Below, in pieces: positions 34,137 through 50,595 of a stretch of 64,000 nucleotides of DNA. The notes beneath the pieces are model-generated. The model worked only from the letters and a program-made list of their open reading frames with translations, was not told where the DNA came from and did no database searches. Position 1 is the first letter of the stretch. Every line of letters begins with the position of its first letter. The stretch is from a bacterium (GTDB taxonomy: Bacteria > UBA8248), in assembly GCA_965225985.1 (NCBI GenBank), contig OZ245330.1, positions 3,098,019 to 3,162,018 on the forward strand. The letters are read 5' to 3'. The position numbers and the translations under genes were made by a program.

Positions 34137-34320
34137 CCCCCGCCCTTCGTGCTAAAATCATCTCATTCAAGAAGCCATCGGGAAAAATTTGCGGGTGAAT
34201 GGTTTCCACGCGCTCTGTTCTCCCACGAGGAGGTGGCCTGCGCTTTCACGCCTCGGGGGCAATAGGGCGCGGCCCGCTCTCCTCATCCATAGCTTATCCA
34301 TTCGAGAGAAAGGGCTCGGT

Positions 34321-35520: not shown

Positions 35521-35530
35521 TCTTCCGGCT

Positions 35531-35725: not shown

Positions 35726-35754
35726 ATTTTTTTCGTGCCGGAAGCCCGGGGGGA

Positions 35755-36180
35755 TCAGGCCGCCGCCAGCACCTCGTTGATCGTCCCGATGAATTTGGGG
35801 AGGGAAAAGGGCTTGCGGACGAGGGCGGCCACGCCGAGCGCGGCCCGCTCCTCCGGGCCCACCTCCTCGGCGGAGCCTGTCACCACCACGCAGGGCAGCC
35901 GGCGGAGGGCGAGGTGCCCGCGGAGAAAGCGGATGAGCGCCCGGCCGTCCATGCCGGGCATGTCCAGGTCGGTCAGGACGAGGTCGAAGGCGGAAGCCCC
36001 ATCCCGCTCCAGCCCCGCCTCCAGCAGGCTGCGGGCGCGGAGGCCGTCCTCGGCCAGGGCCACGTGCCGGAAGCCGAACGCGCCCAGGGCATCGCCGATG
36101 AAGGCGCGCATCCCCTCGTCGTCCTCGGCCACCAGAACGCGGCAGCCGCGATGGGGGGTGGAAAGTTCCCTGGAGTCCAT
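35755..36180 (-). CDS. Single-domain response-regulator receiver (CheY-like)
   Basis: RVLVAEDDEGMRAF...DLVLTDLDMPGMDG...VVVTGSAE.... Divergent from the cyclase gene at 36689. Confidence 0.7.
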   Translation of the reverse strand: MDSRELSTPHRGCRVLVAEDDEGMRAFIGDALGAFGFRHVALAEDGLRARSLLEAGLERDGASAFDLVLTDLDMPGMDGRALIRFLRGHLALRRLPCVVVTGSAEEVGPEERAALGVAALVRKPFSLPKFIGTINEVLAAA

Positions 36181-36319
36181 CTTCGCCTCACCGGGCGGAA
36201 AGGCAAATTGCGGTGTGCTATTCAAATTGACAACACATCCGCATCACCCAAAGTAACCCCCCGCGAAAGAAAATCGCAAAAGAGCACACGATCTGCGCGA
36301 AAAAGCCGGGAACGCCCGG

Positions 36320-36440
36320 GCCGCCGCCGGGAGAGCCCGGGCCGCAAAGGCGCAAACGCCCCGCGCGGCCCCGCTACCGGGGGAGCCTGGCCCAGACTTG
36401 GAGAAAGCCAACTACCGGAAATTCGGGGAGGCTTGTGTGG
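36320..36440 (+). repeat. Partial copy L3 of the dispersed repeat (3' roughly 110 bp)
   Basis: GCCCGGGCCGCAAAGGCGCAAACGCCCCGCGC...AGCCAACTACCGGAAATTCGGGG (core at 36406-36428) followed by a G-run. Confidence 0.7.
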
Positions 36441-36688
36441 GGGGGGGAATTTTTGGCCCTGAGCAAGGCCTGCGACTACCTTGTTTCGAATGAAGTGGCG
36501 GAGGAATTCTCCGCTTCTTTTTCTTTTTTTCTCGGTTCGCTTCTGGCGCAATTCCTGGACGCGTTGGTCTCGACTTGCCCTCCCTGGTTGCTGCTTCTCC
36601 TCTTTCTTGACCCTCGAATTCGCAACGCTTAGACTTTGCGGGATTTTCCTTACATTTTTGAGGAACCTGAAGGCCGGAGGACCGCTCA

Positions 36689-39600
36689 TGCAGTGCCCCC
36701 GCTGCCAAGTGGAAGCTCCGTCCGACGCGGAGTTCTGCCCCGAGTGCGGGGCGAAGCTCGCGGCCACCTGCGTTCAATGCGGCACCGAAAACGCCCCCAC
36801 CCATAAGTTTTGCAAAAAATGCGGCCAATCCTTGGCCCAGGCCGACGGCGCAGATTCGGCGGCCGCCTCGAAGTTCGCCTCCCCCGAGTCCTACACCCCC
36901 AAGTACCTCGCCGAGCGGATCCTGACCTCGAAGGCGGCTTTGGAGGGCGAGCGCAAGCAGGTGACTGTCCTCTTCGCCGACCTCAAGGGCTCGATGGAGC
37001 TTCTGGCCGACCGCGACCCCGAGGACGCGAGGGCGCTCTTGGATGCTGTCCTCACCCGGATGATGGAAGCTGTCCACCGCTACGAGGGCACAGTCAATCA
37101 GGTCATGGGCGACGGGATCATGGCGCTGTTCGGCGCGCCGCTGGCGCTCGAAGACCACGCGCTCCGCGCCTGCTATGCCGCCCTCGCCATCCAGAATTCG
37201 ATCAAGTCCTTCGCTGAGGAAGCCCGCAGGGAGCACGGCGTCGAGGTGCACATCCGCGTGGGGCTCAACTCCGGCGAGGTCGTGGTGCGGGCCATCGGCT
37301 CGGACCTCCGTATGGACTACACCGCCGTGGGCCAGACGGTGAACCTCGCCTCCCGGATGGAGCAGTTGGCCCAGCCCGGCAGCATTAGGCTTACAGCCGA
37401 CACCCTGCGGTTCGCCGAGGGGTTCATTCAGGCCGAGCCCTTGGGCCCGGTCCCCATTAAGGGGATGAGCGAGGCTGTCGAGGTCTTTGAGCTAACGGGC
37501 GCGACCTCGGGCAGGACGCGCTTTCAGGCCACCGCCGCGGGCGGTCTCACCAAGTTCGTGGGACGCCGGAACGAACTTGAAGACCTTCAGGGCGCGCTCA
37601 ACAAGGCAGAAGAAGGACATGGGCAGATCTTTGCCACTGTCGCCGAGGCGGGCGTAGGCAAATCGCGCCTCTACTGGGAGTTCACCCGCTCGCACAGAAC
37701 GAAAGACTGGATGGTCATCGAGAGCGGTTCGGTCTCCTACGGCAAGGCGACGGCCTACAAGCCCGTCATCGATCTCTTGAAAGCCTATTTCTCGGTCGAG
37801 GATTCTGACGACCACCGCCGTATCCGGGAAAAAGTGACGGGCAAGGTCCTGACCCTCGATGAATCGCTCACGCCGGCGATTCCCCCCGTTCTCTCTCTTC
37901 TCGAAGTGCCGATTGAGGACGAAGGCTGGACGAATCTCGACCCGCCCCAGCGGAGACAGCGGACTCTCGACGGCGTGAAGGGTCTCCTTCTCCGCGAGGC
38001 GAAGGTCCAGCCGCTCTGCCTCGTATTCGAGGACCTTCACTGGATAGATACCGAGACGCAGGCGCTGCTCGACTCTCTGATCGAAAGCCTGCCGGGTGCG
38101 CGGGCGCTTTTGCTGGTCAACTACCGGCCCGAGTACGAGCACGGATGGGCGAACATGAGCTTCTACACGAGGCTTCGCCTCGACCCGCTTTCCTCGGAGG
38201 GAGCGGCGGAGCTTCTGGCCGCTATTCTCGGCGGGGATCCTGCCTTGGACCCGCTCAAGAAGCTCCTCATCGAGCGCACCGAGGGAAATCCCTTCTATCT
38301 CGAAGAATCCGTCCAGACCCTCATTGAGAGCGAAGCCCTGGTGGGGGCTCCCGGCGCCTATCTGCTGACGGAGGAGGTTTCCAAGATACAGGTGCCCTCC
38401 ACCGTTCAGGCGATTCTCGCCGCCCGCATGGACCGCCTTCCGCCTGAGGAAAAACGCCTGCTTCAGACAGCCTCTGTAATCGGAACACATATGTCTTATC
38501 CTTTGCTCGCAGCTATTGCCGAGATGTCCGAGGAAGAGCTGAACCGGGGCCTTTCGGCCCTACAGGCTTCCGAGTTCCTCTACGAGACGAACCTTTTTCC
38601 GGAGCGCGAATTCACCTTCAAGCACGCCCTGATACACGAGGTGACTTACGGGAGTCTGGTCCAAGAGACCAAACGGGCCCTCCACGCGCTGGTGATCGAA
38701 GTATATGAGAGGGTCTACCCTGACCGCCTGAGCGAACACCTCGATACGCTCGCCCACCACCTTGTTCGGGGTGAGGTCTGGAGCAAGGCGTCCAAGTATT
38801 TTCGCCCGGTCCTCAGCATGTCCCCCGATATCTGGGGGACGGGTGATCATATGCAAACCATTGAGTTGGGCCAGCGCGACCTGGCGTCGGCGGCGAATTA
38901 TCGGAATTTCGGCCTGGAAGTGATGGCCAGCCTCCGCGTTGGCCTGGCCTGCCATGCGTTGGGGGATTATCCTCGGGCGGAGGAGTTGTTTGGGCGGAAC
39001 GTGGCAATGCTGGAAGGCGACCTGACCCGCGAACGCTTCGACCTGCCCGGCATCGCCTCCGTGCTCTCTCGCACCGGGCTGGTCCTATGCCTCGCCGAGG
39101 AGGGAAAGTTCGCCGAAGGAGTCGTGTGCGCTGAAGAAGCGGTCCTGATCGCCGAAGGGGCAAATCACCCGTACAGCATCGCTGTAGCGCAGTTCGGCCT
39201 TGGGTTCTTATATTTCTTCAAAGGGGATTACGCTAAAGCCATTCCCGTGCTCGAGGATGGCCTGGCCTGTGCGCAGGCAGCGGACATCCCGCAGTTGTTC
39301 CCGCTTATTGCATCGCCCTTGGGCGCCGCATATGCGCGCGGCGGGCGGCTGTCGGAAGCTCTGCCCCTCTTGGAGAAGGCTGTGGAAGAAGCCGCTGCTA
39401 CTAAACTCATGATCCATCAGTCGCTCCGGACTGCCTGGCTGGGCGAGGCCCATCTGCTGGCCGGGCGGCTGGACGAGGCGAGTCAATTTGCCCAGCGGAG
39501 CCTGGAACTCTCCCGCAGGCACAAGGAGCGGGGCCATGAGGCGTGGGCCCTCCGGCTCCTCGGCGAGATCGCCTCGCGTTGTGATCCCCCGGACGCCGAG

Positions 39601-39822
39601 AAGGCAGAAGACCACTATCGTCAGGCCCATCCTTTGGCCGAGGACCTGGGGATGCGCCCCCTGCTGGCGCTCTGCCTCCTCAGCTCAGGCTCCCATTACC
39701 GCCGGGTGGAGCGGGCGGAGCAGGCCCGGGCCGAACTGTGCGCAGCGGTCGAGCTCTTCCGCTCCATGGGGATGTCTCACTGGCTGCCCCGGGCGGAAGC
39801 GGAGCTCGCCGAGGCGGGATGA
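36689..39822 (+). CDS. Double zinc-ribbon / class III adenylate-guanylate cyclase / STAND (AAA_16) ATPase / TPR protein
   Basis: Two CxxC...CxxC ribbons at the N-terminus. Cyclase catalytic-domain blocks (VTVLFADLKGSMEL, GDGIMALFGAP). Walker A 'AEAGVGKSRL'. C-terminal TPR-like repeats. Confidence 0.82.
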
Positions 39823-40009
39823 AGCGCCCCTGCGGGCGGACCAGTCGCGAAAATCCACTTTCTTGACGGCCTCCCCCGGGTTCGAATAAACTTACATGGA
39901 ACCCTCTTTTAACTGCCCGTCCCCGCTGGGGGTACCCGGCGAGGATTTTTGCGTCACGCCTCCGTTGTTCACGTCGACGATGGTATTTGCGAGAAGAAGG
40001 AACCGCGAG

Positions 40010-40252
40010 ATGCCCCTTTTCCTTGATATTCATAACAAAATCAAGGGCTTGACGGCCGCCGCGGCCCACCGGCAGGACCTCGAAGTTCAGCACAAGTACG
40101 GGGTCAAGTACCTAAGGTATTGGTTCGACGAAGGCACCGGCAAGGTCTTCTGCTTGATTGAGGCCCCGAACAAAGAAGCGGCCGTGGCCGTGCACCGCGA
40201 GGCCCACGGTAACGTTGCGGACGAGATCATCGAGGTCGAAGAAGGTCACTAG
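40010..40252 (+). CDS. DUF4242-family small protein
   Basis: MPLFLDIHNKIKGLT...YWFDEGTGKVFCLIEAPNKEAAVAVHREAHG.... Confidence 0.55.
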   Translation: MPLFLDIHNKIKGLTAAAAHRQDLEVQHKYGVKYLRYWFDEGTGKVFCLIEAPNKEAAVAVHREAHGNVADEIIEVEEGH

Positions 40253-40280
40253 CCACAGAAGTCGCCATTTCAGTTGAAAT

Positions 40281-40884
40281 GTGAATTCCGGCTCATGCCT
40301 ACCCCCAGCGCGGTTGCTCATCGAGGTTGATGCCGAGAGCCGTCTTGGCCGCGCCTATTCCCTAGCCGGGAGACATTCCGAAGGTCTGTCATTTCTGGAG
40401 CAGGGCGAGAAGGAATCCGAATCCGTCGGAGCGCTCCATTGGCACTCGCTTCATGTCGCTTGGCAGGTAGAAGAGCACCTGCAGGCCGGGCCCGGATGAA
40501 GCCGCCATGCACGCCACTCGCGCGCTTGAGCTCTCCCGCGAGCGCAAAGAGCGTGGGAACGAAGCATGGTCTCTCCGCCTCCTCGGCGAGATTCACTCCC
40601 ACCCCGACGCCCTCGACGCCGAAAAGGCCGAAGACCACTACCGGGGGGCCCTCGCGCTGGCTGAAGAACTCGGCATGCGGCCTCTCCAAGCCCACTGCCG
40701 GAAGGGCCTCGGGGCGCTCTATGGCCGGACGGGCCGGGAGGAGAAGGGCCGAGAGGAGCTCACCGCCGCGATGGACATATACCGCGATATGGAGATGACC
40801 TTCAGGCTGGAGAAGGCGGAGGAGGCGATGGCGGGGGTAGGGGAAATTTCTTGCGGGCCGGGAGACAGGGGCGGGTATTGCTGA
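40281..40884 (+). pseudogene. Fragment paralogous to the C-terminal TPR region of the cyclase-STAND-TPR proteins
   Basis: LSRERKERGNEAWSLRLLGEIHSHPDALDAEKAEDHYRGALALAEELGMRPL aligns to LSRRHKERGHEAWALRLLGEIASRCDPPDAEKAEDHYRQAHPLAEDLGMRPL in the gene at 36689..39822. There are no upstream domains. Confidence 0.5.
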
Positions 40885-40941
40885 TCACATTTTGGGGATA
40901 GAGGAAATGATCCAGAAATGAAAAAGATTTGAAAAAACTAT

Positions 40942-41229
40942 TTACTTTTGCTTTTTCTTCTTTGACGCGGACTTTTTAACTAGGATTGGGAAATGGCCTT
41001 GGGCACATTCTTCGATATTGAGTTGGCGGACCATCTGACGAAGAATACCTACCTCGACCTCAATTTTGCTGAGGCTTTTGCCATGACCACCATTGGGGAG
41101 GTGACGAAAGCTCTTATCGTTGTAATATACCCAGTAGTTATGTGGCTTGAGGCTCATCGTATGCCCTGGGGCACATTCGTTCAGCATATCGACGATCTTA
41201 TCGAGACTTACAGTGCCAAACGAAGACAC
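40942..41229 (-). CDS. Possible HicA-like toxin (weak call)
   Basis: 95-aa basic protein immediately downstream of a HicB-like gene in an AT-rich island. It has a GHxxS...G pattern but no strong motif. Confidence 0.3.
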   Translation of the reverse strand: MSSFGTVSLDKIVDMLNECAPGHTMSLKPHNYWVYYNDKSFRHLPNGGHGKSLSKIEVEVGILRQMVRQLNIEECAQGHFPILVKKSASKKKKQK

Positions 41230-41231
41230 TG

Positions 41232-41693
41232 TCAGGCAGCCAAGGCTTGCTCTTGTTCTTCAATGATGTTCATCTCGGGCGTTGGCTTGGTGATCTCCAA
41301 TACCTCTACTTGGTTTGACCTATCTGCGGGCAGTTTGGGCAACCCTTCCACAGAATGATTGGATTCCCTTACCTCTTCTACTGCGGCCTTCCATTCCCTG
41401 AGAGTTGCTTCGCACTCGTCACAGAAGAAGGATTCCACCTCTCGGCTGAATTCGCTAAAATCCTCCGAACCATAGGCGATATCATAGAGAACCGAAATAA
41501 AAGCTTTTTTGAAGTTTAGATACGCTTCTCCCCCTGTTTTTCCGCCCGCCGAAAGACCTCCGGGGGTAACACCATAAATCCAGGTTCCGGCTTCTTCTTT
41601 AACGGCCAAAACTCGGCCCATAGCAGTGATGTCAGCCACAAAGCCCTTCCCAGAAACCTTTTCCCTAATAGTGAATAGGAGTGGCAGGTTCAT
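41232..41693 (-). CDS. HicB-like (UPF0150, RNase-H-like fold) antitoxin-type protein
   Basis: The N-terminus LPLLFTIREKVSGKGFVADITAMGRVLAVKEEAGTWIYGVTPGGLSAGGKTGGEAYLNFKKA fits the HicB pattern. AT-rich. Confidence 0.45.
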   Translation of the reverse strand: MNLPLLFTIREKVSGKGFVADITAMGRVLAVKEEAGTWIYGVTPGGLSAGGKTGGEAYLNFKKAFISVLYDIAYGSEDFSEFSREVESFFCDECEATLREWKAAVEEVRESNHSVEGLPKLPADRSNQVEVLEITKPTPEMNIIEEQEQALAA

Positions 41694-42009
41694 GGAATCC
41701 CTCCAGTTGGAATAATGCGTCCGATCGCAATTAAACGCACAAAACCCTAACAAAACCCTATAGGTACCTATCGGCACCAAAGCGGGAGTTAATAACACAA
41801 TGGCAAGTTCTCATCAATCGCTGAACTACACCATAAGCGGCCAAGGCTTTCAACAGTAAGTGAACCCCTCTCAGTATAATTTAACCCAAATGAGACAAAA
41901 AGCGACCATTATTTTCATTAAAATGTCCAATTTCACACACATTGTTTGAGCACATTGCATGCCAATTCATCTTGTTTCTGGTTGATATTTGTGGAATTTC
42001 TAAATGGGA

Positions 42010-42120
42010 CACCACCCAACTCCGCGCAAACGCCCGGCACGGCCCCGCTACCGGGGAGCCTGGCCCAGACTTGGCGAAAGCCAACTACCGGAAATTCGGG
42101 GGGGTTCGGGCGCGGGGGAA
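42010..42120 (+). repeat. Partial copy L4 of the dispersed repeat
   Basis: Core at 42079-42101 preceded by GGCCCCGCTACCGGGGAGCCTGGCCCAGACTTGG. Confidence 0.7.
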
Positions 42121-42236
42121 ATTTCTTGCGGGCCGGGAGACAGGGGCGGGTTTCATGCCCGCCGCCGCGGTTTCCGTGAATCACCCGGGCGGGGGGGGAG
42201 TTTTTTGCGGGGCGGGCGGCGCCCCCGGGCCGGCGG

Positions 42237-42689
42237 TCACGCCAGGGGTGTGGGAGCGCCCGCCGATTTGGTCTCTTCGAGGGCCTCGCCGATCGCGCCG
42301 GCGAGGTCCTTAAGTTCAAAGGGTTTTTGGAGGAATGCCGGGACGCCGAGGGCGGCGAGCGCCGCGCGGACATCGCCCCGGCCGGTGCCCGACATGGCGG
42401 CGCAGGGCGTCGGCCCGAGATCGGCGTGCCCCCGGATCCAGCGCAGGAGGGTGAGGCCGTCCATCCCGGGCATCCGCAGGTCGGTCAGGACGAGGCCGAA
42501 GGGCTCCTCCCGCGCCAGCCCCTCCTCCAGGTGGGTGAGGGCAGAAAAGCCTTCCCCGGCGAGGGTGACATGGCGGTGGCCGAGGGCGCGAAGGGCCTCG
42601 CCGAGGAATTCGCGCGTATCGGGGTCGTCATCCACCACGAGGATGCGGCGGCCGTTTTCTTCCTCATCTCCGGGAATCGGGGAATCCAT
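42237..42689 (-). CDS. Single-domain response-regulator receiver (CheY-like)
   Basis: RILVVDDDPDTREFL...LVLTDLRMPGMDGL.... A paralog of 35755..36180. Confidence 0.7.
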   Translation of the reverse strand: MDSPIPGDEEENGRRILVVDDDPDTREFLGEALRALGHRHVTLAGEGFSALTHLEEGLAREEPFGLVLTDLRMPGMDGLTLLRWIRGHADLGPTPCAAMSGTGRGDVRAALAALGVPAFLQKPFELKDLAGAIGEALEETKSAGAPTPLA

Positions 42690-42928
42690 TTTCTCCACTC
42701 TCCTTGCGTTTGCCGTGAGCGCGAATCTTTCTTCCTGCACACCACCCAAGATGTTGCAAGATGCGGTCCGCCGGGCGGGGGGAAAGTGAGCCGCGACACG
42801 CGGGGGGTGTGAGGGCGATCACAGGAAGGCCGGTTTTCAGGCGGTATTCGGCGAACCGGAGAAAAAGCGCGCGGGCGCGGAATGGGGCGCGCCAAATAAA
42901 CGGCGGGCCGCTGGGAAAAAAGGGGTCC

Positions 42929-44716
42929 CTACCGCCGCCACCTGCGCGTCCGGCGGCGGGCGTAGCTCGCCGGGTCCGCCCCCCAGTCGGGGGCCGAGCC
43001 GCCCTCGGTGTACCCCCCGGCGGGCGCGGTGAGGATCCCCTCGGCGCGGGCGAGCTCCTCGGCGAGCTTGGCGTAGGCGAAGGCGAAGTGATTCTCGTTG
43101 CGCTCGAAGCGCGCGCCCCCCTCCCCCTCCCCCTCCCCGCGGCCGCACCCTGAGGTTCATGAGGTGGGCGTCCACCTCGGCGAGGAGGGCTTCCTCGGCC
43201 GCGTCCCGGGGGGCGGGAAGGCGGACCGCGCCGGGCCCCCGTGGAACTCCTCCACAATCCGCTCGAGCAGCTCCTCGCGGTTCAGGCGCACATGGCCGCG
43301 CTCGACCCCGAGGAAGGCGACGCGCTTGACGGCCATCTCGCCCGGGGTGTGCCGCCAGATGAAGCAGCCCTCCGGGAGGAGGTCGTGCATCTCGCGGGCG
43401 GTCTGGGTGAAGGGCCCCCCGTCGATGACGGCGGCCTCGACCCCGAGCCGCCCGAAGAGGTCGGCGCAGCGCGCGGCGAGCCGGTCGATGGGGGGGCCTC
43501 GAAATAGACCCAGCGGACGGGGCCCTGGCCGGAGACCCGCTCGCGCACCGCGAGGGCGCAGCGCTCCCCGGTGTCGATGCCGCAAAAGCGGGGGGCGGTC
43601 ACGGCCCGGCCCCCCCGGCTTCGGCATCTTCCATGAAGAAGGGCTCCGCCCCGCGCAGCCGCCCCAGGAGGTCCGCCCCGATGGACTGGAGGTCGCCCGC
43701 CTCGGGAAGGGCGAGGCTCGAGCAGCGGAACCGCGCACGCTCGCGCGGGCTCGCCGCCGCGCGCCACTTCTCCGCGATCCGCCCGAGGCGGACGGCCCCG
43801 ACCGCGAGCTGGGAGATGCGGTAGCTCCGGTGGCCGGGGGCGGCGGCCTCCGCGTTCTGGGCGGCCCACCGCCCCGCCCCCCGCGCGAGGGCGCCGCCGC
43901 AGGCGGGGCAGGCGAGGGCGCCGGCCGCCGCCTCCCGCATCACCCGGGGCCAGCCCTCCTCCAGGACGGTCTCCTCCCCGCATCCGGGGCAGGGAACGCG
44001 CCAGACCCGCTGGTCCCCGCGCAGGTACATCGCGTGAATTCCCGCCCCGGGCGTCCGCCCCATGGCGAGGTTCACCGTGAGGGCGAGCCCCGAGGCGTCG
44101 AGCCGGTCGTTCGACCACTTCAGGTTTCGGGGGGGATGTCGTCCACCTCGTCCCGGATGAGGACGTCCATCGGCATCGAGATGGCGTTGCCGACATCGCG
44201 CAGGCCCAGGATGTAGAGGAAGCGCGAGCCGCCCCGCCCCGGGAACTCCTTCAGCCCCTTGGGGGAGACCCCCTTGTAGCGGCCGTCCCGCATGGCCCGG
44301 GCGAGGCGGCCGCGCAGGGCGGGCTTCACCCGGGTGTCGTCGAAGCGGTCCGCGAAATTCTGGTCCGGGAGGAAATAGCCCACGTTCAGCCGCAGGCGCG
44401 CCGCACAGTAGATCGCGAGGCCCACCGCGATCGTGGTCATCCCGATCTGGGTCCCCTTGAGGAGGGTCAGCGTCCGGCCCGGCAGGCCGAGGCGGAGCAC
44501 CTTTTCCAGATGGGCCGTCGCCTCGCGGAGGGCCTCCCGCCCGGCGAAGCCGAACCGCCCGGCGTCGGTGCGGATCTCCCGCTCCAAAAAGGCGGGGAAG
44601 GAGAGCCGCCCCGCCCCGAAGACCGGCCTCCCCCCCGCGAGGGAATCGAACACTTCTTCTCCGGTTTTCTTTTGCTGGAAATGAAACGATTTTTCCCCGA
44701 TCCGATCCAAGGCCAC
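42929..44716 (-). CDS. Phage terminase large subunit (GpA-like), with several apparent homopolymer frameshifts
   Basis: N-terminal ATPase segment with 'LKGTQIGMTT'. Later segments in other frames include a zinc ribbon 'CPGCGEE...CPACGG' and ...FERNENHFAFAYAKLAEEL...*. Frame breaks coincide with G/C runs near 44130, 43605 and 43495. Confidence 0.5.
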
Positions 44717-44777
44717 CCTCCCCGGGGAGGCACTTCGCGCCGCTCCCCGGGAGGGAGTCTAGGGCCGGGGCCCCGGA

Positions 44778-44800
44778 AGCCAACGACCGGAAATTCGCGC
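44778..44800 (+). repeat. Dispersed-repeat core, diverged variant (AGCCAACGACCGGAAATTCGCGC)
   Basis: 62 nt upstream of the terminase start on the minus strand. Confidence 0.6.
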
Positions 44801-45206
44801 ATTTTCGGGTAGTGGGTCAATTTGAATTTTTTAGGGGTAGGGTGCGAAAAAGGTTCTTCATTTGAATTTCAATATACACAATAAGAAATGCCCCCTCGGA
44901 CCCGATCCGAAAAGGGCATTTCCCCATTAGTGGTTCAAAAGCAACACTTACATATTCAAGTTTGGTAATTCAAGAAAAATATTGATCAGGGTTTTCCCTT
45001 CTAATTTAACCATTTTCGCGAATATCTATCCCTGGCGGGTCCATGCATCAAGCAAATAGTCCTGATTCGACTAAGGGCGGCTATCGTCTTTCAAAAGGTC
45101 AAAGGGTGAATATGGGTTGAAATCCATTCTTGCATGTCGTATATTTAGGTTAATCTAAAAATAAATTTAGTTTAACAAAAATTATGCGCGAGCAGGAGGC
45201 CAAACA

Positions 45207-45684
45207 ATGACGAAAATAATGTTTCGAGTTCCAGCGTTGGCGATTGTTTTTTGGGGGGGGTCTCTTGGCCGGGTGGGTGTCTTTGGCCGGGGCGGCCGAG
45301 AGGGTCATCTACATGCAGGCCATGGAGCCCAAAGGAACAACCTCTGCGAGCAAAGAGCCGTTTCCGGGCAAGACCCTTCCCAAGGGAGGTGGCTACATCA
45401 TCAAGCCGCCGAGCAAAGCGGGCAAGTGGCAAGTGTCGACCTACATCTTTAACCCCACCCAAGTCATTGTGAACAAGGGTGAAAAGGTGACGCTCAAGAT
45501 TCTTGGCATCAACGGCTCAAAACACACCGTGTCCATCGAGAGGTATGCGAAAAAGCCGTTTTCGATCAAACGTGGAAAGTTGACGGAGGTTTCCTTCGTC
45601 GCGGACAAGGCAGGCGTCTTCAGGATCGTCTGTTCCGAGCATCCACCAAGTATGACGGGCGAGATCATTGTCTTGGCCAACTAA
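45207..45684 (+). CDS. Small blue-copper (cupredoxin) protein with a signal peptide; frameshift in a T6G8 run
   Basis: MTKIMFRVPALAIVFWGG, then a shift to ...LLAGWVSLAGAAE.... Type-1 copper ligand pattern H...CSEHPPSM near the C-terminus. Confidence 0.6.
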
Positions 45685-45845
45685 GGCCAAATAATCAAAT
45701 TAGGACACTACCCAACTTCGCGGCCCCCCCGGCATGGGGAGACCCTCCCCCGGCATGGGGAGACCCGCCCCATTCGCCGGGACAGTCAATGAAACCGGGA
45801 TGTTCCGGATTCTTCAGCCGGCAAGAGCCCGCCCGCGGGCCGCCC

Positions 45846-47009
45846 CTATCGCAGAGAGGAGGCGGACTCGAGCTTCTTGAGGGCGTCCTTGGCTTCCTGG
45901 AAGTCGGGGTTCAGCACGATGGCCCGGCGCAGGGTCGAGGTCGCCTGGTAGGCGTCGCCGCTCCCGAAGAGGGCGAGGGCCATGTTGTAGTAGAGGACCG
46001 CATCGTTCGGCGCGACGGAGAGGGCCTGGCGGTAGTTCTGGATGGCCTCATTGTATTTCTTTTGCTGGCGGAAGGCGATTCCGAGCCGGTTGTAGTAGTG
46101 GATGTTGTCGGGATTGGCCTCGAGCGCGGCCGCGAATTCCGTCTCGGCGATGTCGGCGCGGCCGTTTTCGAGGAAAAACTCGGCGACGGCTGCGCCCCGG
46201 TCGCCCTCGTCTGGGTTCAGGGAAACGGCGGCCTCGATCGCCTCGCGCGCCTCCTCCACGTTTCCCTTCGAGATGTGCGCCTTGGCCAGCCGCGTCTGGC
46301 GATCGGGGTTGCGGGGGCTGAGGAGGGTCGCGCGCTTGATCGCCGCGAGCGCCGCGTCCGTCTTGCCCTCCTTTTGGAGCATGTCCCCGATGCGGTCGTA
46401 GGCCTTGGTGTAATTCTCGTCCACCTTCACCGCCTCCTGGTAGCAGGACTTCGCCTTGCGGCCCTCGCCCATGACCTCGTAGAGCTCGCCCGTCTTCGTC
46501 CAGACGCGGGGCGACTTGGGGTCGATCTCCTGGGCGGCGCTGATCTCTTCAACGGCCTCGTCGGGGACGCCGATGTCCAGGAAGGCGCCGCCCCGGGCGA
46601 GCCGGACGACGGTTTCCGCCGAGTACTCCCGCCGGAGGAGGACGGCGTTGATCATGTCCTCGACATTCTTCTGGGAAAGCGGGGTGATCAGCTGGCCGTC
46701 GGCTTCGAATTCGGCCGCATGGGCGATCTGATCCTCGTCGAGGCCGTCGCTTGTCAGCAGAAACGGCACGTTCTCGGTGACGGAGTTCTCCCGGACGAAG
46801 CGGAGGAGCTTTATGCCGTTTCTCTCGGGGGCCTCCCAGTTGCACAGGATGACGTCCACGCGGGTCTTGAGGAGGCTTTCCATCGCGTCGTTTTCGGTGA
46901 CGATATCGCGCAGGACCTCGAACCCCGACCGGTGCAGCATCTTCAAGAGCACGCTGCGGAACTGGCCCATCTCTTCGATAACGATGACCTGAAGCTTATC
47001 GTCAGCCAA
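45846..47009 (-). CDS. Response-regulator receiver domain fused to TPR repeats
   Basis: The N-terminus (VIVIEEMGQFRSVL...DVILCNWEAP) is receiver-like. The C-terminus has at least six TPR-like repeats. Divergent from the cyclase gene at 47421. Confidence 0.78.
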   Translation of the reverse strand: MADDKLQVIVIEEMGQFRSVLLKMLHRSGFEVLRDIVTENDAMESLLKTRVDVILCNWEAPERNGIKLLRFVRENSVTENVPFLLTSDGLDEDQIAHAAEFEADGQLITPLSQKNVEDMINAVLLRREYSAETVVRLARGGAFLDIGVPDEAVEEISAAQEIDPKSPRVWTKTGELYEVMGEGRKAKSCYQEAVKVDENYTKAYDRIGDMLQKEGKTDAALAAIKRATLLSPRNPDRQTRLAKAHISKGNVEEAREAIEAAVSLNPDEGDRGAAVAEFFLENGRADIAETEFAAALEANPDNIHYYNRLGIAFRQQKKYNEAIQNYRQALSVAPNDAVLYYNMALALFGSGDAYQATSTLRRAIVLNPDFQEAKDALKKLESASSLR

Positions 47010-47420
47010 CGCCGTGACCTCCGGGCGGGGGGGCGGATGATACCGGGCTTCCCGTCCCGCCGCGGGCCTCTGGGGAAACGCCGGGCGCGGCCCCTTGCAG
47101 GGCGGCGCCGGGCCCGCGCCCGAACCGCATGAATCGCCGGGCGGTTTTCAAAACTCCGTATAAAGAATGAATATACCTAAAAAATAACACAATTATGCGC
47201 GGGAAAGTTCTACCGATTTAAACTTTTGGCATCTCTTTGCCGGGAAGGCGTTTCCCCGGGTTCGATTCAGAGGAAAAAGCATGGCAGAATTGGATTTTGG
47301 TATAATCGCCGGACGATAGGGCGAGCCGGGGATTTGTGAGATTTCCGGGAAACGGGCGTCCCAAGGCCTTTCGCGCGGCGCCGGGCCGGGGGGCGGCCCG
47401 TTCCCGAGGGGAAGCGCGCC

Positions 47421-49763
47421 GTGCAATGTCCCGCCTGCCAGCATGAAAACCGGGATCGAGCGCACTTTTGCGATCAGTGCGGCGCCAGGTTAGAGCGATC
47501 CTGCCCCCACTGCGGAAACGCCGCCCGGCCGGGCGCCGCCTTTTGCGACCAATGCGGAGGGGCTCTCGAATCCCCCGCCCCCGCCGCTTCCCCTCCCCCG
47601 GGCCTGGAGGCGCGGGCGGAAGCCTTCGCCAGCCGGATCCCCAGCTACACCCCCGCGCACCTGGTCAAAAAAGTGCTGACCTCCCGGGGCGCCATCGAGG
47701 GAGAGCGCAAGCAGGTGACCGTCCTCTTCGCGGACGTTTGCGGCTTCACCGGGCTCTCGGAGCAGCTGGACCCGGAAGAGGTCCACGGCCTCATGGACCG
47801 CTGCTTCGAGATCCTGATGCGCGAGATCCACCGCTTCGAGGGGACCATCAACCAGTTCACCGGGGACGGGGTGATGGCCCTCTTCGGCGCGCCCGTCGCC
47901 CACGAGGACGCGCCCCAGCGCGCCATCCGGGCGGCCCTGGGCATCCAGGGGGCGCTCCGCCAGGAGGCGCTCCGCGAACAAGGCGCGGATTTCCCGGGCG
48001 GGGAGGGCGCGGCGTTTCAGATGCGCATCGGCATCGACACGGGCACCGTGGTGGTCGGCAAGATCGGCGACGACCTGCGGATGGACTACACCGCCGCGGG
48101 GGACACCACGAACCTGGCCGCCCGCCTCCAGGCCGCCGCCGAGCCCGGCACCGTGCTGGTCAGCGAGAACACCCACCGCCTGACGAAGGATTTTTTCGAG
48201 TTCTCCCACGCCGGGCCGATCGAGGTGAAAGGGAAGAAAACCCCGGTGGCCGTCTACGGCGCGATCCGGCCCAAGGCGGTGCGCTCGCGCATGGAGGCGG
48301 CCGCGCGGCGCGGGCTCACCCCCCTGGTGGCCCGGGACGCGGAGATCGGCCACCTCATGACCGCCTTCGCCAAGGTCAAGGAGGGCCACGGCCAGATCGT
48401 CTCGCTGGTGGGCGAGGCCGGGGTCGGCAAGTCCCGCCTGGCGCACGAGTTCAAGAAGCGCCTCCGCGGCGAGGACATCACCCTCTTCGAGGCCTACTGC
48501 CCCTCCTACGGCCATGCCACCCCCTACCTGCCCGTCGCCCAGATCATAAAAGGCTACTGCGGCATCACGGACGCCGACAACGAGGTCAAGATCCGGGAGA
48601 AGGTGACATCGGCCTGAAGCCGGTGGGTCTCGTGGGGTCACCACGAGGGGCTGGACATCACAAAAAGGCTCGAATACGTCATCGCCTATCTCAGCAACAT
48701 CATCTCCATCCGGGTGAAGGACGATCTGCTGCAGGGCATCAGCCTGGAGGATCGCAAGCGGGAGAGCTTCGACGGGCTGAAGGCCATGTTCGTGGGCGAG
48801 AGCCAGGAGAAGCCCGTCGTGGTCATCCTGGAGGACATCCACTGGATCGACAAGATCTCCGAGGAGTCCTTCGACTACCTGAGCGCGAGCGTTCCCAAGA
48901 ACCGGCTCCTCGTCCTGGCGCTCCACCGCCCGGAATACCGGTGTCCCTGGGGGACGAGCTCGAGCTACCTTCGGATTCCCGTCGAGCCGCTCTCCCCCGC
49001 CGAGAGCGACGAGATGATCCACCGCGTGCTGGAGGTCCCGGAGGTGGGCCGGGAGGTGAAGGAGCTCGTCCAGGCCAAGAGCGAGGGAAACCCCTTCTTC
49101 CTGGAGGAGCTCATCCTGGAGCTGCGGGAAGCCGGGTGGATCCGGACGGAGAAAAACGCCTGCCGCATGGTGGGCGCCGGGGCGAAGGCGCAGGTGCCCG
49201 CCACCGTCCAGGACGTCATCATGGCCCGCATCGACCGGCTGGCGGATCCCCTGAAGCACACCCTCCAGCTGGCCGCCGTGATCGGCCGCGAGTTCCCCTT
49301 CGCCGTCCTGGAGAAGATCGCCGATCCGGCCCACCAGCTGGAGCCCTCGCTCCAGTCCCTCCAGCATTCGGAGTTGATTACGGAAAAGAACCTCTTCCCG
49401 GAGCTGGAGTACATGTTCAAGAACGTCCTCACCCAGAACGTGGCCTACAACAGCCTGCTCGTTCAGCGCCGCCGCGAGCTCCACACCCGGATCGCCGCCG
49501 CCATCGAGGAGCTCAAGCGGGACAGCCTGGAGGAGCACTTCGAGGTTCTGGCCCACCACTACAAGAGCGGCAACCAGCCCGGGAAAGCCTTCGAATTCCT
49601 GGCCCGCGCGGGAGAGAAGGCGATGGAACTGCACTCGGTGGAGGTGGCCGAGAGCTACTACAACGACGCCATCGCCATCGCCGCCGAGCTGGACCCTTCA
49701 GACGCGGCGAGGGAGAAGGGGCGCGAGCTGAAGTCGAGGCTGCGGGAAATCGGCACGTACTAA
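47421..49763 (+). pseudogene. Second zinc-ribbon/adenylate-cyclase/STAND/TPR paralog, interrupted by one in-frame TGA (48615-48617); otherwise a single frame
   Basis: ORFs 47421..48617 and 48714..49763 share a frame. Cyclase blocks (VTVLFADVCGFTGL, GDGVMALFGAP), Walker A GEAGVGKSRL and TPR repeats are present. The sequence reads KVTSA[TGA]SRWVSWG.... An extended -10 promoter (TGGTATAAT) lies at about 47303. Confidence 0.7.
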
Positions 49764-49786
49764 TCCAATTTTTGAAAGGGCGCGCG

Positions 49787-50572
49787 ATGAGCGAAAAAGT
49801 CTCCATACCGGCAGTGAACGTTTCGGGCCTCCGGGAAGCGGCCCGGCAGGAGTACGCCGAGGTGGCGGGCGACCCCCACAAGGGGTTCCACTTCCACACC
49901 GGAAGAGTGCTGGCGGCAATTCTCGAATATCCAGAAACCTGGCTGGAGAGCCTCCCCGAGAGCGCCGTCGAGTCGCTGGCGGGCACCGGCAACCCATTCT
50001 CCCTGGGCGGGATCCGGGCCGGCGAGCGCGTCGTGGACGTCGGCTGCGGGGCAGGCTTCGACAGCTTCCTCGCCGCGGGCTTCACCGGGCCCTCCGGCCG
50101 CGTCATCGGGGTGGAAATGACGCGGGAGATGCTCCAAAAGGCCCGCGGCGGCGGCGCCGGGAGCGGTCTCGCCCACCTGGAATTCAAAGAGGGCTTCGCT
50201 GAGGAGCTGCCCGTCCCGGACGGGTGGGCCGACGCCGTCATCTCCAACGGCGTGCTCAACCTCTGCCCGGACAAGCACCGGGTGTTCGGGGAGCTGCACC
50301 GCGTGCTCAAGCCGGGGGGGCGGATCCAGATCGCCGACATCCTGGTGCAAAAGCCCGTTCCCGAGGAGGCGAAAGAAGACATCGATCTTTGGACGGGGTG
50401 AATCGCGGGGGCTCTGCTGGAGGCAGAGCTGGAATCGGTCGTCACCCAGGCCGGATTCGAGGGTTTCGAGATCACCTGGCGGAAGGATGTCTTCGCCGGG
50501 GCGCCGCAGGACTCCAGCGCCGCCGCCTTCGGCACCCTGGGCATCAACTACCGCGCCCGCAAGCCCGCCTAG
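49787..50572 (+). CDS. ArsM-like SAM-dependent methyltransferase with an in-frame TGA (50399-50401) at a conserved Cys position; candidate selenoprotein or disrupted gene
   Basis: Methyltransferase motifs (VVDVGCGAGFD, VISNGVLNLCPDK). Reads ...DIDLWTG[TGA]IAGALLEAELESVVTQAGFEGFEITWRK..., where family members have 'GCIAGA'. A hairpin GCTCTGC-TGGAG-GCAGAGC starts 9 nt after the TGA. Confidence 0.65.
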
Positions 50573-50595
50573 ACCGAAGGGTGGGGGCGCAAAAC

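What the first reader, a model, noticed from the sequence alone, without database searches (positions are those of the whole stretch)
35755..49763. Two paralogous zinc-ribbon/adenylate-cyclase/STAND-ATPase/TPR proteins, each divergently paired with a CheY-like receiver, sitting as cargo next to phage terminase and portal genes
The genes at 36689..39822 and 47421..49763 share an architecture: a double zinc ribbon, a class III nucleotide cyclase domain, a STAND-type Walker A (GVGKSRL) and TPR repeats. Each is transcribed divergently from a single-domain receiver (35755..36180) or a receiver-TPR protein (45846..47009). A third truncated copy survives at 40281..40884. STAND NTPases with TPR sensor arms are the architecture of Avs-type antiviral sensors, which recognise phage terminase or portal proteins. 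These copies carry a nucleotide cyclase where Avs proteins carry nuclease or other effectors, and they are embedded in a prophage between its terminase and portal genes. Together this raises the possibility of a cyclic-nucleotide-producing, STAND-gated defence or signalling system with a receiver partner. The alternative is the familiar but functionally obscure cyclase/AAA_16/TPR regulator family, which lacks the LuxR HTH seen in many relatives.
Basis: inference. Interest (0 to 1): 0.65.

Follow-up and report, generated by a model that had tools for sequence, protein, structure and literature searches.

The report
Ordinary cyclase–STAND–TPR signalling genes, not defence
The window holds one intact, one interrupted and one fragmentary member of a very large bacterial family of ATP-switch-controlled cyclic-nucleotide synthases lying in and beside a decayed prophage, and nothing links them to phage defence or to the neighbouring receiver genes.

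Summary
The domain reading is right for copy 1 (36688..39822): double zinc ribbon, class III cyclase, AAA_16/STAND NTPase and a TPR arm, with no HTH. Copy 2 (47421..49763) is a distant paralogue (39% identity). It carries an in-frame TGA and lacks the TPR arm. "Copy 3" is only the last 116 codons of a TPR arm.

The NTPase module alone finds 12,093 protein clusters at E<=1e-30. Related genomes carry several copies, up to five in tandem. In 57 related loci with upstream sequence, none has a divergent receiver, and no related locus has the window's phage genes. No Avs model matches.

The receivers are not conserved partners. RR1 has no relative above 37% identity. The receiver–TPR protein lacks the phospho-acceptor Asp. 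The conserved partner of copy 1's subfamily is an 80-aa SCO4226-like gene (40010..40252), adjacent in 9 of 9 independent loci.

The prophage is defective, with a frameshifted and truncated terminase. Only copy 1 lies between portal and terminase.

Best reading: ligand-gated STAND switches driving cyclase dimerisation, i.e. ordinary signalling genes.

Side findings: an 11-copy promoter-like motif, a selenocysteine ArsM-like methyltransferase, and a SECIS-like hairpin after copy 2's TGA.

The parts
36688..39822 (+). Copy 1: an intact 1044-aa protein with double zinc ribbon, class III nucleotidyl cyclase, AAA_16/STAND NTPase and TPR arm
   Evidence: Pfam. 100% match to P0001, and 61-62% full-length matches to ~1050-aa homologues. 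Catalytic D98, D142, N219 and R223 align to CyaB 3r5g, with Gln138 at the Lys position and Thr212. Walker A GVGKS and Walker B FEDLHW.
36607..36635 (+). Sigma-70-like promoter candidate, 53 nt upstream of the copy 1 start
   Evidence: TTGACC-17-TAGACT, 9 of 12 matches. This is a consensus match only.
40010..40252 (+). SCO4226-like small protein (80 aa), the conserved neighbour of copy 1's subfamily
   Evidence: PF14026. NCBIfam NF033706 at 69 bits, below the 125-bit cutoff. PDB 4oi3 at 6e-11. Adjacent to the cyclase gene in L003, L004, L006, L008, L010, L012, L087, L088 and L089.
35755..36180 (-). RR1: a single-domain receiver with all phospho-acceptor residues. It is a lineage-specific orphan.
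   Evidence: Response_reg 2e-15. Aligned to CheY. No homologue above 37% identity.
36337..36454 (-). One of 11 copies of a promoter-like repeat, here upstream of RR1
40495..40884 (+). Fragment of a third paralogue: the last 116 residues of a TPR arm, 57% identical to the copy 1 C-terminus
   Evidence: tblastn. TPR_12 7e-9.
42237..42689 (-).
   Evidence: Response_reg 5e-20. BLASTP 2e-34. Alignment.
45846..47009 (-). Pseudo-receiver fused to a TPR domain, divergent from copy 2
   Evidence: Response_reg 1.2e-9 plus TPR families. D57 to N, K109 to T, and DD to EE.
47421..49763 (+). Copy 2: DZR, cyclase and STAND NTPase in 780 codons, with an in-frame TGA at 48615-48617 inside a 9-codon insertion, and no TPR arm
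   Evidence: The split is also called in an independent assembly.
48615..48661 (+). TGA followed by an 8-bp hairpin with a GGUCA loop that starts 18 nt after the codon (SECIS-like geometry)
   Evidence: Fold -21.3 kcal/mol, z = -2.66, 3 of 200 shuffles. No Rfam match.
43599..44716 (-). Remnant of a GpA-type large terminase. Two pieces lie in different frames and no match to the C-terminal part was found.
   Evidence: GpA_ATPase profile positions 29-142 and 179-236, in two frames. phrog_675 positions 22-168 and 164-338 of 576. No PHROG match in the four ORFs tested downstream of the fragments.
31316..32707 (-). Phage portal protein gene
   Evidence: phrog_10963 at 3.4e-45.
27697..30051 (-). Phage capsid / maturation protease fusion gene
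   Evidence: Phage_capsid_4 1.8e-42. phrog_4523 and phrog_133.

Best explanation
The genes are members of a very large, multi-copy family of cytoplasmic signalling proteins, mainly in Rokubacteria/Methylomirabilota and neighbouring soil and groundwater lineages. In this family a class III nucleotidyl cyclase is fused to a STAND-type P-loop NTPase and a TPR sensor arm, with an N-terminal double zinc ribbon.

Copy 1 (36688..39822) is intact. With the downstream 80-aa SCO4226-like gene (40010..40252) it forms a two-gene unit. That unit is conserved in ordinary chromosomal settings in other genomes.

Proposed mechanism (inferred, not shown): the TPR arm binds an unknown ligand or protein. This releases the NTPase into its ATP-bound, oligomerising state. 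Oligomerisation brings cyclase domains together into the dimer needed to form active sites. A 3',5'-cyclic nucleotide is then made and read by receptors encoded elsewhere. The product is probably cAMP, but base specificity is uncertain because Gln/Thr replace the usual Lys/Asp.

Copy 2 is an old paralogue (39% identity). It has lost its sensor arm and carries an in-frame TGA, so it is most likely decaying. Copy 3 is a leftover 3' fragment.

The three receiver genes are local, non-conserved neighbours. RR1 and RR2 point the same way as the phage genes, and RR1 has the same repeated promoter-like element upstream as several of those genes (one copy lies 3' of RR2).

The whole stretch is a defective, rearranged prophage remnant. 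It contains gene fragments, an IS fragment and direct repeats. It is not a functional phage carrying a defence cargo.
For: Architecture and intact motifs:
- Domain architecture.
- Both metal Asp, the Asn and the Arg align to the solved CyaB cyclase, and the Walker A and B motifs are conserved.
- The NTPase module folds like CED-4, Apaf-1, NLR and MalT NODs. Foldseek gives E 8e-7 to 3.5e-5, with the best TM-score of 0.43 to MalT 8bob.

Family size and copy number:
- More than 8000 hits, at the scoring cap, for each copy.
- The NOD alone finds 12,093 clusters at E<=1e-30 and 60,398 at E<=1e-10.
- Five paralogues in tandem in L091.

No phage or receiver link:
- 0 of 57 loci have a divergent receiver, and only 8 of the other loci have any receiver within 10 kb.
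- No locus other than the window's own copies holds a homologue of the window's capsid, portal or terminase.
- Neighbourhoods are mostly metabolic, with no phage gene.
- There is no Avs hit.
- RR1 is an orphan and RR3 is a pseudo-receiver.

Conserved partner:
- An SCO4226-like gene is adjacent in 9 of 9 independent loci of the ~1050-aa subfamily.

Decay of the surroundings:
- Broken terminase.
- FGE-sulfatase and IS1595 fragments.
- Direct repeats.
- Copy 2's TGA lies in an insertion absent from all relatives.
- A 765-aa 'short form' elsewhere is a split gene, not a natural variant.
Against: - No member of this exact architecture has been characterised, so the activation mechanism and the product are inferred by analogy with MalT, Apaf-1 and Avs, and with class III cyclases.
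- The TPR arm evolves faster than the rest: 51% mean pairwise identity against 79% for the cyclase and 72% for the NOD. Tandem arrays also exist. Immune-type receptors show the same pattern.
- Three receivers within 12 kb of three cyclase genes or fragments is an unusual local density. I can explain it only as coincidence or a local rearrangement history.
- Copy 2 keeps a very high GC3 (0.90-0.92) and has no frameshifts, so it may not be dead.
- The structural model of the NOD is of modest quality (pLDDT 64).
- Phage association in other loci was tested only with this window's phage proteins and with Pfam lists for nine neighbourhoods.
Confidence: 0.72

Rival explanations
1. This is an Avs-like antiviral sensor. 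The TPR arm recognises a phage protein (terminase, portal or capsid), the STAND module oligomerises, and the cyclase makes a cyclic-nucleotide alarm signal. The prophage carries it as a superinfection-exclusion cargo.
For: - The tripartite layout of effector, NTPase and TPR sensor is the STAND immune layout (Foldseek hits include NLR resistosomes and Avs3).
- The cyclase domain matches PycC models.
- The sensor arm diverges faster than the rest, and tandem arrays exist.
- Copy 1 physically lies between portal and terminase remnants.
Against: - No Avs or other STAND defence HMM matches.
- No cNMP-binding effector gene is nearby.
- No related locus has the window's phage genes, and nine annotated neighbourhoods show no phage or known defence gene.
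- The family has more than 12,000 50%-identity clusters and several copies per genome.
- The closest relatives (72% and 62%) sit with an SCO4226-like gene in chromosomal contexts.
- The prophage is defective and copy 2 lies outside it.
Confidence: 0.05
2. This is a locally evolved two-component input. RR1 (and formerly RR2 or RR3), once phosphorylated, binds the TPR arm or otherwise gates the adjacent cyclase–STAND protein, and the shared divergent intergenic region co-regulates the pair.
For: - The geometry is divergent, with 507-bp and 411-bp intergenic regions.
- RR1 and RR2 keep all phospho-acceptor residues.
- Three receivers lie within 12 kb of three cyclase genes or fragments.
Against: - The pairing is absent from 57 of 57 related loci with upstream sequence.
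- RR1 has no orthologue.
- RR3 lacks Asp57 and Lys109.
- No histidine kinase was found among the ORFs scanned.
- RR1 has upstream the same repeat that precedes phage genes, is oriented with them, and is flanked by 90%-identical repeat copies. This points to a duplication or insertion history rather than co-evolution with the cyclase.
Confidence: 0.08
3. Copy 2 is not a pseudogene. Either its TGA is decoded as selenocysteine, or the two halves work as a split protein, giving a sensor-less and possibly constitutive cyclase–NTPase.
For: - The organism evidently uses Sec. The adjacent ArsM-like gene has a TGA aligned to Cys in one homologue and to an in-frame stop in another.
- Copy 2's TGA is followed by an 8-bp hairpin whose GGUCA loop starts 18 nt downstream. 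This geometry resembles the ArsM-like hairpin.
- GC3 is 0.90-0.92 in both halves and there are no frameshifts.
- The TGA is reproduced in a second assembly.
Against: - The TGA lies in a 9-codon insertion that no relative has, so no Cys/Sec pair supports it.
- The inserted bases are the reverse complement of the following codons. A template-switch mutation would produce this, and it creates a hairpin by itself.
- There is no Rfam SECIS match.
- The position is a surface linker of the NTPase, not a redox site.
- The TPR arm is missing, and a 765-aa short form examined elsewhere is a split gene.
Confidence: 0.12

Closest known systems
Mycobacterium tuberculosis Rv0386, Rv1358 and Rv2488c (class III cyclase – P-loop ATPase – LuxR HTH, 'LAL-type' regulators)
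   Same: An N-terminal class III cyclase is followed by a large P-loop ATPase of the AAA_16/MalT type. This domain description comes from bioRxiv 10.1101/2024.03.06.583649, read. From my own memory of Castro et al. 2005 (not checked here), Rv0386 also has Gln at the adenine-specifying Lys position.
   Different: The window proteins have no C-terminal LuxR/GerE HTH, so they cannot act directly as transcription factors. They carry an N-terminal double zinc ribbon and a long TPR arm. The second specificity residue is Thr/Ser, not Asn.
TOMM system kinase/cyclase fusion protein (NCBIfam TIGR03903)
   Same: This is the best curated-family match. Residues 82-701 (cyclase plus NTPase) align to model positions 278-890 at E 1.2e-94.
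   Different: The score of 318 bits is far below the 705.75-bit cutoff. The N-terminal protein kinase part of the model is absent, and no TOMM biosynthesis genes are nearby.
Avs (antiviral STAND NTPases, AVAST)
   Same: Both have an effector, a STAND NTPase and a TPR-like sensor. Activation by oligomerisation is the likely working principle. Avs proteins sense terminase, portal or capsid (PMC13581612, PMC13601566).
   Different: - No Avs HMM matches.
- The effector is a cyclase rather than a nuclease, protease, SIR2 or TIR domain.
- Homologues are not in phage or defence contexts.
- Copy number and family size fit housekeeping signalling.
Pycsar / Pucsar cyclases (PycC, PucC)
   Same: The class III-type cyclase domain matches PycC models at up to 3e-26.
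   Different: Pycsar is a two-gene system with a cNMP-binding TM or TIR effector next to a stand-alone cyclase. No such effector is present here, and the cyclase is fused to a STAND/TPR module.
MalT (E. coli maltose regulon activator)
   Same: MalT gives the best TM-score among solved structures for the NTPase/WH module (8bob_C, TMq 0.43). There are sub-threshold TPR_MalT hits. It is a ligand-gated, ATP-dependent oligomerising switch.
   Different: The output is a cyclase at the N-terminus rather than a LuxR DNA-binding domain at the C-terminus. A profile of the NOD finds no solved STAND protein by sequence.
Pseudomonas aeruginosa CyaB catalytic domain (PDB 3r5g, class IIIb adenylate cyclase)
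   Same: This is the closest solved cyclase (E 1e-27). Both metal Asp residues, the Thr, the Asn and the Arg align.
   Different: CyaB has Lys where the window proteins and their family have Gln. CyaB is membrane-anchored with a MASE2 sensor, not STAND/TPR.

Membership tests
Class III nucleotidyl cyclase (Pfam Guanylate_cyc) | Domain match above the curated threshold | tested here: met
   93.4 bits (copy 1) and 98.2 bits (copy 2) against a cutoff of 21.9.
Class III nucleotidyl cyclase (Pfam Guanylate_cyc) | Two metal-binding Asp residues, plus the transition-state Asn and Arg | tested here: met
   D98, D142, N219 and R223 align to CyaB 3r5g. The same residues are present in copy 2. In 18 of 20 close relatives of copy 1 the Asn is His.
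Class III nucleotidyl cyclase (Pfam Guanylate_cyc) | Canonical base-specifying pair: Lys/Asp or Lys/Thr for ATP, Glu/Cys-type for GTP | tested here: not met
   Gln138 and Thr212. Gln occurs in 19 of 20 relatives and Thr/Ser in 20 of 20. The product cannot be predicted from sequence.
Class III nucleotidyl cyclase (Pfam Guanylate_cyc) | Cyclase activity | not testable with these tools
   Needs an enzyme assay.
STAND NTPase superfamily | P-loop NTPase with Walker A GxxxxGK[ST] and Walker B hhhh[DE][DE] | tested here: met
   GVGKS and VFEDLHW. K325 is invariant, and E448/D449 are conserved in 20 and 19 of 20. AAA_16 scores 73.7 bits against a cutoff of 32.6.
STAND NTPase superfamily | NOD fold (NBD plus helical and winged-helix domains) resembling Apaf-1, CED-4, NLR or MalT | tested here: met
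   Foldseek against the PDB: CED-4 8e-7, Apaf-1 1e-6, NLR resistosomes about 1e-6, MalT 3.5e-5 (TMq 0.43) and Avs3 8.5e-5. Caveats: the model pLDDT is 64 and TM-scores are low (0.3-0.43). A sequence profile finds no solved STAND protein.
STAND NTPase superfamily | C-terminal repeat sensor arm | tested here: met
   Copy 1: TPR_12 at 76 bits plus other TPR families over residues ~780-1040. Copy 2: not met, as no TPR arm is present.
Avs / AVAST antiviral STAND | Match to an Avs family model | tested here: not met
   PADLOC-DB lists no Avs or other STAND defence model at E<=0.01.
Avs / AVAST antiviral STAND | Defence-type effector domain or defence-island / mobile-element context across homologues (the two criteria used in PMC13581612) | tested here: not met
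   The effector is a cyclase. Nine annotated neighbourhoods show no phage or known defence gene and are mostly metabolic. None of the 82 other loci holds the window's phage genes. This was not a full defence-score computation.
Avs / AVAST antiviral STAND | Binding of a phage protein and anti-phage protection | not testable with these tools
   Needs an experiment.
Pycsar | Stand-alone cyclase with an adjacent cNMP-binding TM or TIR effector | tested here: not met
   PycC models hit only the cyclase domain. None of the neighbouring ORFs scanned with Pfam has a cNMP-binding, TIR or comparable effector domain.
LAL / Rv0386-type cyclase regulators | C-terminal LuxR-type HTH | tested here: not met
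   No HTH or GerE family appears among the Pfam hits or in the precomputed domains of 240 homologues.
TOMM kinase/cyclase fusion (TIGR03903) | Score above the equivalog cutoff, including the N-terminal kinase | tested here: not met
   318 bits against 705.75. Only model positions 278-890 are matched.
   RR1 and RR2 have all of these. The receiver–TPR protein next to copy 2 has EE, Asn, Ser and Thr instead.
   0 of 57 loci have a divergent receiver upstream. RR1 has no homologue above 37% identity.
SCO4226 family (Pfam PF14026 / NCBIfam NF033706) | Family match, and the Ni-1 site residues Asp43, Ser46 and His76 of SCO4226 | tested here: inconclusive
   PF14026 is on record. NF033706 scores 69 bits, below the 125-bit cutoff. 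PDB 4oi3 matches at 6e-11. In that alignment Asp43 is kept, Ser46 becomes Thr and His76 becomes Ile (site residues from PMC4186839). Nickel binding is therefore not predicted.

The most novel reading that the evidence does not exclude
The whole DZR–cyclase–STAND–TPR family could be an NLR-like pattern-recognition system. It has many paralogues per genome, tandem arrays and fast-diverging TPR arms. Each paralogue would sense a different invader or danger signal and answer with a cyclic-nucleotide alarm. The window's copy 1 would then be one such sensor retained in a prophage remnant. My data do not exclude this. They only show no specific phage or defence context, no Avs relationship and no linked effector.
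Probability: 0.05. Interest if true: 0.8.

Novelty: new member of a known kind. Interest (0 to 1): 0.22.

Why it matters
As a defence discovery it does not hold, so the region should not be carried forward as a candidate Avs-like or cNMP immune system.

What remains useful is modest:
1. The family is one of the largest uncharacterised STAND-coupled second-messenger families: more than 12,000 50%-identity clusters for the NTPase module alone.
2. One subfamily has a tightly conserved small partner, the SCO4226-like gene. This gives a concrete two-gene unit for biochemical work on how a STAND switch controls a cyclase.
3. The window also shows a clear Sec/Cys pair in an ArsM-like methyltransferase.
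4. It shows an 11-copy activator-type promoter motif shared by phage-derived and host genes. Both could be followed up cheaply.

Tried and rejected
- **Avs or other defence membership.** PADLOC gave only generic PycC hits. Rejected.
- **Receiver partnership.** I built a receiver HMM and scanned 84 loci. No divergent receiver was found. A reverse search with RR1 found no orthologues. Rejected.
- **Natural TPR-less short forms as an explanation for copy 2.** The 765-aa example P0165 turned out to be a split gene, with its TPR ORF just downstream and an intact 1182-aa orthologue elsewhere. Rejected as support.
- **Rfam.** No family was found in the window at gathering thresholds, and no SECIS model near either TGA. 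There are no tRNA genes.
- **The repeat motif.** It is absent from viral contigs and from 82 other loci. There are only two metagenome hits.
- **Terminase.** A tblastn of a terminase fragment against GenBank phages found no match. PHROG scans of the four ORFs downstream of the fragments found no terminase C-terminal domain.
- **Literature.** The main text of the actinobacterial cyclase survey (PMC2447327) is not held. Supplements of PMC13581612 are not held. That paper's text does not mention cyclase (term count). No paper on this exact architecture was found.
- **Methyltransferase–cyclase adjacency.** It is seen in the window and L003, with weaker or more distant matches in L019 and L031. That is too rare to call an association.

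Full report
**Setting.** The window is about 65% G+C with patchy composition. It matches ENA contig ERZ28763718:ctg124344 at 99.96% identity. Its closest protein relatives come from Candidatus Rokubacteria / Methylomirabilota (NC10) MAGs.
- The left part encodes F420 biosynthesis-type enzymes, PmbA/TldD peptidases and a GAF–SpoIIE phosphatase.
- From about 14.5 to 44.7 kb, on the minus strand, lies a phage structural cluster. It includes a tail tube (23515..24435), a tail-completion protein (25228..25743), a capsid/protease fusion (27697..30051), a portal (31316..32707) and a GpA-type large terminase.
- The right part again encodes ordinary enzymes: methyltransferases, an ornithine cyclodeaminase and an MFS transporter.

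**Observation: copy 1.** Copy 1 is an intact 1044-codon gene at 36688..39822. Pfam finds DZR, Guanylate_cyc, AAA_16 and TPR families, and no HTH.

**Observation: copy 2.**
- It starts at GTG 47421 and has DZR, cyclase and AAA_16.
- It contains an in-frame TGA at 48615-48617.
- It stops at 49763 after 780 codons, with at most one TPR-like helix pair.
- The TGA sits in a 9-codon insertion that none of ten aligned relatives has.
- An independent assembly calls the gene split at the same place.
- The two copies share only 39% identity over 731 residues.
- Copy 2's best relatives anywhere are only 45-48% identical.

**Observation: copy 3.** It is only the last 116 residues of a TPR arm (40495..40842, 57% identical to the end of copy 1).

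**Receivers.**
- RR1 (35755..36180) and a receiver–TPR protein (45846..47009) are real, and each is divergent from a cyclase gene.
- A third receiver, RR2 (42237..42689), is 47% identical to RR1.
- Alignment to CheY shows that RR1 and RR2 keep the acidic pair, Asp57, Thr/Ser87 and Lys109.
- The receiver–TPR protein has Glu-Glu, Asn, Ser and Thr at those positions. It cannot be phosphorylated at the canonical site.

**Is the prophage functional, and are the genes its cargo?**
- The terminase is in two pieces in different frames. 44120..44716 covers GpA_ATPase profile positions 29-142, and 43599..44075 covers positions 179-236.
- Together the pieces reach only position 338 of the 576-position phrog_675 profile. 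None of the four ORFs tested downstream of them matches a terminase C-terminal domain.
- Between capsid and portal lie two FGE-sulfatase fragments.
- Between portal and terminase lie a DUF3800 gene, an IS1595 transposase fragment, an M20 peptidase, RR1, copy 1, the SCO4226-like gene, the TPR fragment, a low-GC stretch and RR2.
- Direct repeats of about 200 nt (92% identical) flank the DUF3800–M20 block. Copies 90% identical flank RR1. Repeats of 45 nt (93% identical) flank the low-GC stretch.
- This is a defective, rearranged remnant. Only copy 1 lies between portal and terminase. Copy 2 lies to the right of the terminase, where none of the ORFs scanned has a convincing phage match.

**How common is the family?**
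- Each copy retrieves the maximum of 8000 scored homologues. The top 120 have the same architecture and are about 1050 or about 1120 aa long.
- The NTPase module alone (residues 285-705) finds 12,093 50%-identity clusters at E<=1e-30 and 60,398 at E<=1e-10.
Single MAGs contribute up to four of the best 80 loci.
- One 7.4-Mb contig has five paralogues in tandem.

**Context in other genomes.**
- I built a receiver HMM and scanned all fetched loci. Of 57 loci with at least 2 kb upstream, none has a divergent receiver. Only eight have any receiver within 10 kb.
- No locus other than the window's own copies contains a homologue of the window's capsid, portal or terminase.
- Nine annotated neighbourhoods show no phage gene. 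Most of their genes encode metabolic enzymes or transporters. One also has transposases, and one is a tandem array of paralogues.
- PADLOC gives no Avs or other STAND defence hit. Only generic PycC models hit the cyclase domain.
- RR1 has no relative above 37% identity among 5.8 billion proteins.

**The real conserved partner.**
- The 80-aa gene downstream of copy 1 (40010..40252) belongs to the SCO4226-like family. PF14026 is on record, PDB 4oi3 matches at 6e-11, and NCBIfam NF033706 scores 69 bits, below its cutoff.
- A homologue lies within 300 nt of the cyclase gene in nine of nine independent loci examined for copy 1's ~1050-aa subfamily: L003, L004, L006, L008, L010, L012, L087, L088 and L089. 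In the six loci compared by tblastn it is 72-85% identical. In six of the nine it lies directly upstream on the same strand.
- In L003, which holds the closest relative (72%), the small gene lies downstream as in the window and is split by a transposase.
- SCO4226 binds nickel weakly (PMC4186839). Of its conserved Ni-1 site, only Asp43 is kept here. I therefore do not predict nickel binding.

**Catalytic competence.**
- Alignment to the solved CyaB cyclase shows both metal Asp residues (D98, D142), the transition-state Asn219 and Arg223, and Thr212.
- Gln138 stands where adenylate cyclases have Lys. Copy 2 has the same set.
- In 18 of 20 close relatives of copy 1 the Asn is His, and Gln is nearly invariant.
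- The enzyme is probably active, but its base specificity cannot be read from sequence.
- Walker A and B motifs are conserved.
- A model of the NTPase module (pLDDT 64) matches CED-4, Apaf-1, plant NLR resistosomes, MalT (best TM-score 0.43) and Avs3. This places it in the STAND superfamily without assigning a clade. A sequence profile finds no solved STAND protein.
- The best curated family is the TOMM kinase/cyclase fusion TIGR03903, at 318 bits and far below its cutoff.

**Mechanism.**
- Shown here: the domain order, the intact catalytic and NTPase motifs, and the STAND-like fold.
- Inferred by analogy with MalT, Apaf-1 and Avs, and from the obligate-dimer nature of class III cyclases: ligand binding to the TPR arm permits ATP-dependent oligomerisation. 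That brings cyclase domains into active dimers, and a cNMP is released to receptors encoded elsewhere.
- The TPR arm is the fastest-evolving part: 51% mean pairwise identity, against 79% for the cyclase and 72% for the NOD. This fits diversification of sensor specificity.
- The same pattern is what keeps a small probability on an immune-type role for the family as a whole.

**Copy 2's TGA.**
- The gene after copy 2 is an ArsM-like methyltransferase. Its TGA at 50399-50401 aligns with Cys in the L003 homologue and with an in-frame stop in the L031 homologue. Homology continues for about 55 residues beyond it.
- A conserved hairpin with a GGA loop follows that TGA in both the window and L031. 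This is a standard selenocysteine signature, so the organism uses Sec.
- Copy 2's TGA is followed by an 8-bp hairpin whose GGUCA loop starts 18 nt downstream (z = -2.66).
- However, the inserted bases are the reverse complement of the following codons, which a template-switch mutation would produce. No relative has Cys or Sec there.
- I rate recoding at roughly one in eight.

**Repeated promoter-like motif.**
- A 22-nt sequence, read on the minus strand as CCCCGAATTTCCGGTAGTTGGC, occurs 11 times in the window. All copies are in one orientation. Chance expectation is 0.
- It is followed by a TTGG(C/G)T-type -35 hexamer, about 17 nt of spacer, and a TAGATT, TACATT or TAGGCT-type -10 hexamer.
- It is preceded by a second CGAA-containing half-site about 11 nt upstream.
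- Ten of the 11 copies lie about 40-390 nt upstream of a plausible minus-strand gene. These include tail genes, capsid, portal, terminase, RR1 and two genes outside the phage cluster at 55.7 and 58.8 kb.
- The eleventh copy is a duplicated copy of the portal leader.
- The motif is absent from 82 other loci (about 1.2 Mb) and from viral contigs.
- It looks like an activator-dependent promoter shared by the phage-derived cluster and some host genes. It shows that RR1 is embedded in that transcription pattern rather than paired with the cyclase.

**Verdict.** The finding describes real genes, but several details are wrong, and the defence, receiver and cargo reading is not supported. The genes are new members of a known, very common and functionally uncharacterised architecture. 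Interest is low.

Noticed in passing
window 19106, 21614, 22305, 30093, 32824, 35686, 36407, 42080, 44779, 55696, 58849 (each 22 nt, motif text on the + strand, functional sense on the - strand): There are eleven same-orientation copies of GCCAACTACCGGAAATTCGGGG, against a chance expectation of 0. Read on the minus strand, the motif carries a -35-like TTGG(C/G)T, about 17 nt of spacer and a TAGATT/TACATT-like -10, plus a second CGAA half-site about 11 nt upstream. Ten copies precede minus-strand genes, including tail genes, capsid, portal, terminase, RR1 and two non-phage genes. The motif is absent from 82 related loci and from viral contigs. It is probably an activator-dependent promoter or regulon.
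   Followed up: partly
window 49814..50566 (+), TGA at 50399-50401: This ArsM-like SAM methyltransferase has an in-frame TGA that aligns with Cys in the L003 homologue and with an in-frame stop in the L031 homologue. Homology continues about 55 residues past it, and a conserved hairpin (GGA loop) follows. It is a probable selenocysteine protein, called as a truncated 195-aa ORF.
   Followed up: yes
window 48615..48661 (+): Copy 2's in-frame TGA lies in a 27-nt insertion absent from relatives. It is followed by an 8-bp hairpin with a GGUCA loop 18 nt downstream, which is SECIS-like geometry. The inserted bases are the reverse complement of the next codons, so the hairpin may simply be the footprint of a template-switch mutation.
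   Followed up: partly
L086 (PVBE012483698.1) against window 11328..13429 and 55699..59955: A 92-95% identical metagenome contig joins window 13429 directly to 55699. It therefore lacks 13430..55698 (42.3 kb: the phage cluster plus both cyclase genes). The right breakpoint falls inside the motif copy at 55696, and the left one falls inside the GAF–SpoIIE gene. This is either a deletion variant or an assembly chimera. The contig also lacks 57059..57784.
   Followed up: partly
window 42237..42689 (-): This third single-domain receiver (RR2) is 47% identical to RR1 and has intact phospho-acceptor residues. It lies between the low-GC stretch and the terminase remnant.
   Followed up: yes
window 30566..31297 (+) and about 33906..34130 (-): Two FGE-sulfatase fragments lie between capsid and portal. 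An IS1595-type DDE transposase fragment lies between the DUF3800 and M20 peptidase genes. These are further signs of decay and rearrangement. FGE-sulfatase-like domains are reported as STAND sensor domains in PMC13581612, but no link was tested here.
   Followed up: no
window 32668..32871 / 35531..35733 / 36337..36454, and 40832..40876 / 42107..42151: Direct repeats bracket blocks of genes. About 200 nt at 92% identity flank DUF3800–IS–M20. 118 nt at 90% flank RR1. 45 nt at 93% flank the 52%-GC stretch 40877..42106. This suggests repeat-mediated insertions or duplications.
   Followed up: partly
window 21300..22330 (-): Two tandem small paralogous ORFs, each starting MRGIY..., each have their own copy of the promoter-like motif and a near-identical leader.
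   Followed up: no
L091 (ENA ERZ21869602 ctg94890l, 7.36 Mb contig): Five cyclase–AAA_16–TPR paralogues (1107-1195 aa) lie head to tail in one array.
   Followed up: no
alignment A1, position 219 of copy 1: The transition-state Asn of class III cyclases is His in 18 of 20 close relatives of copy 1. Copy 1 and copy 2 keep Asn. Gln replaces the adenine-specifying Lys throughout the family.
   Followed up: partly
L085 (Ga0179591_1363605) 4771..4789 (-): An exact copy of the motif core sits in an otherwise unrelated 52.8%-GC metagenome contig. It might be a related mobile element.
   Followed up: no
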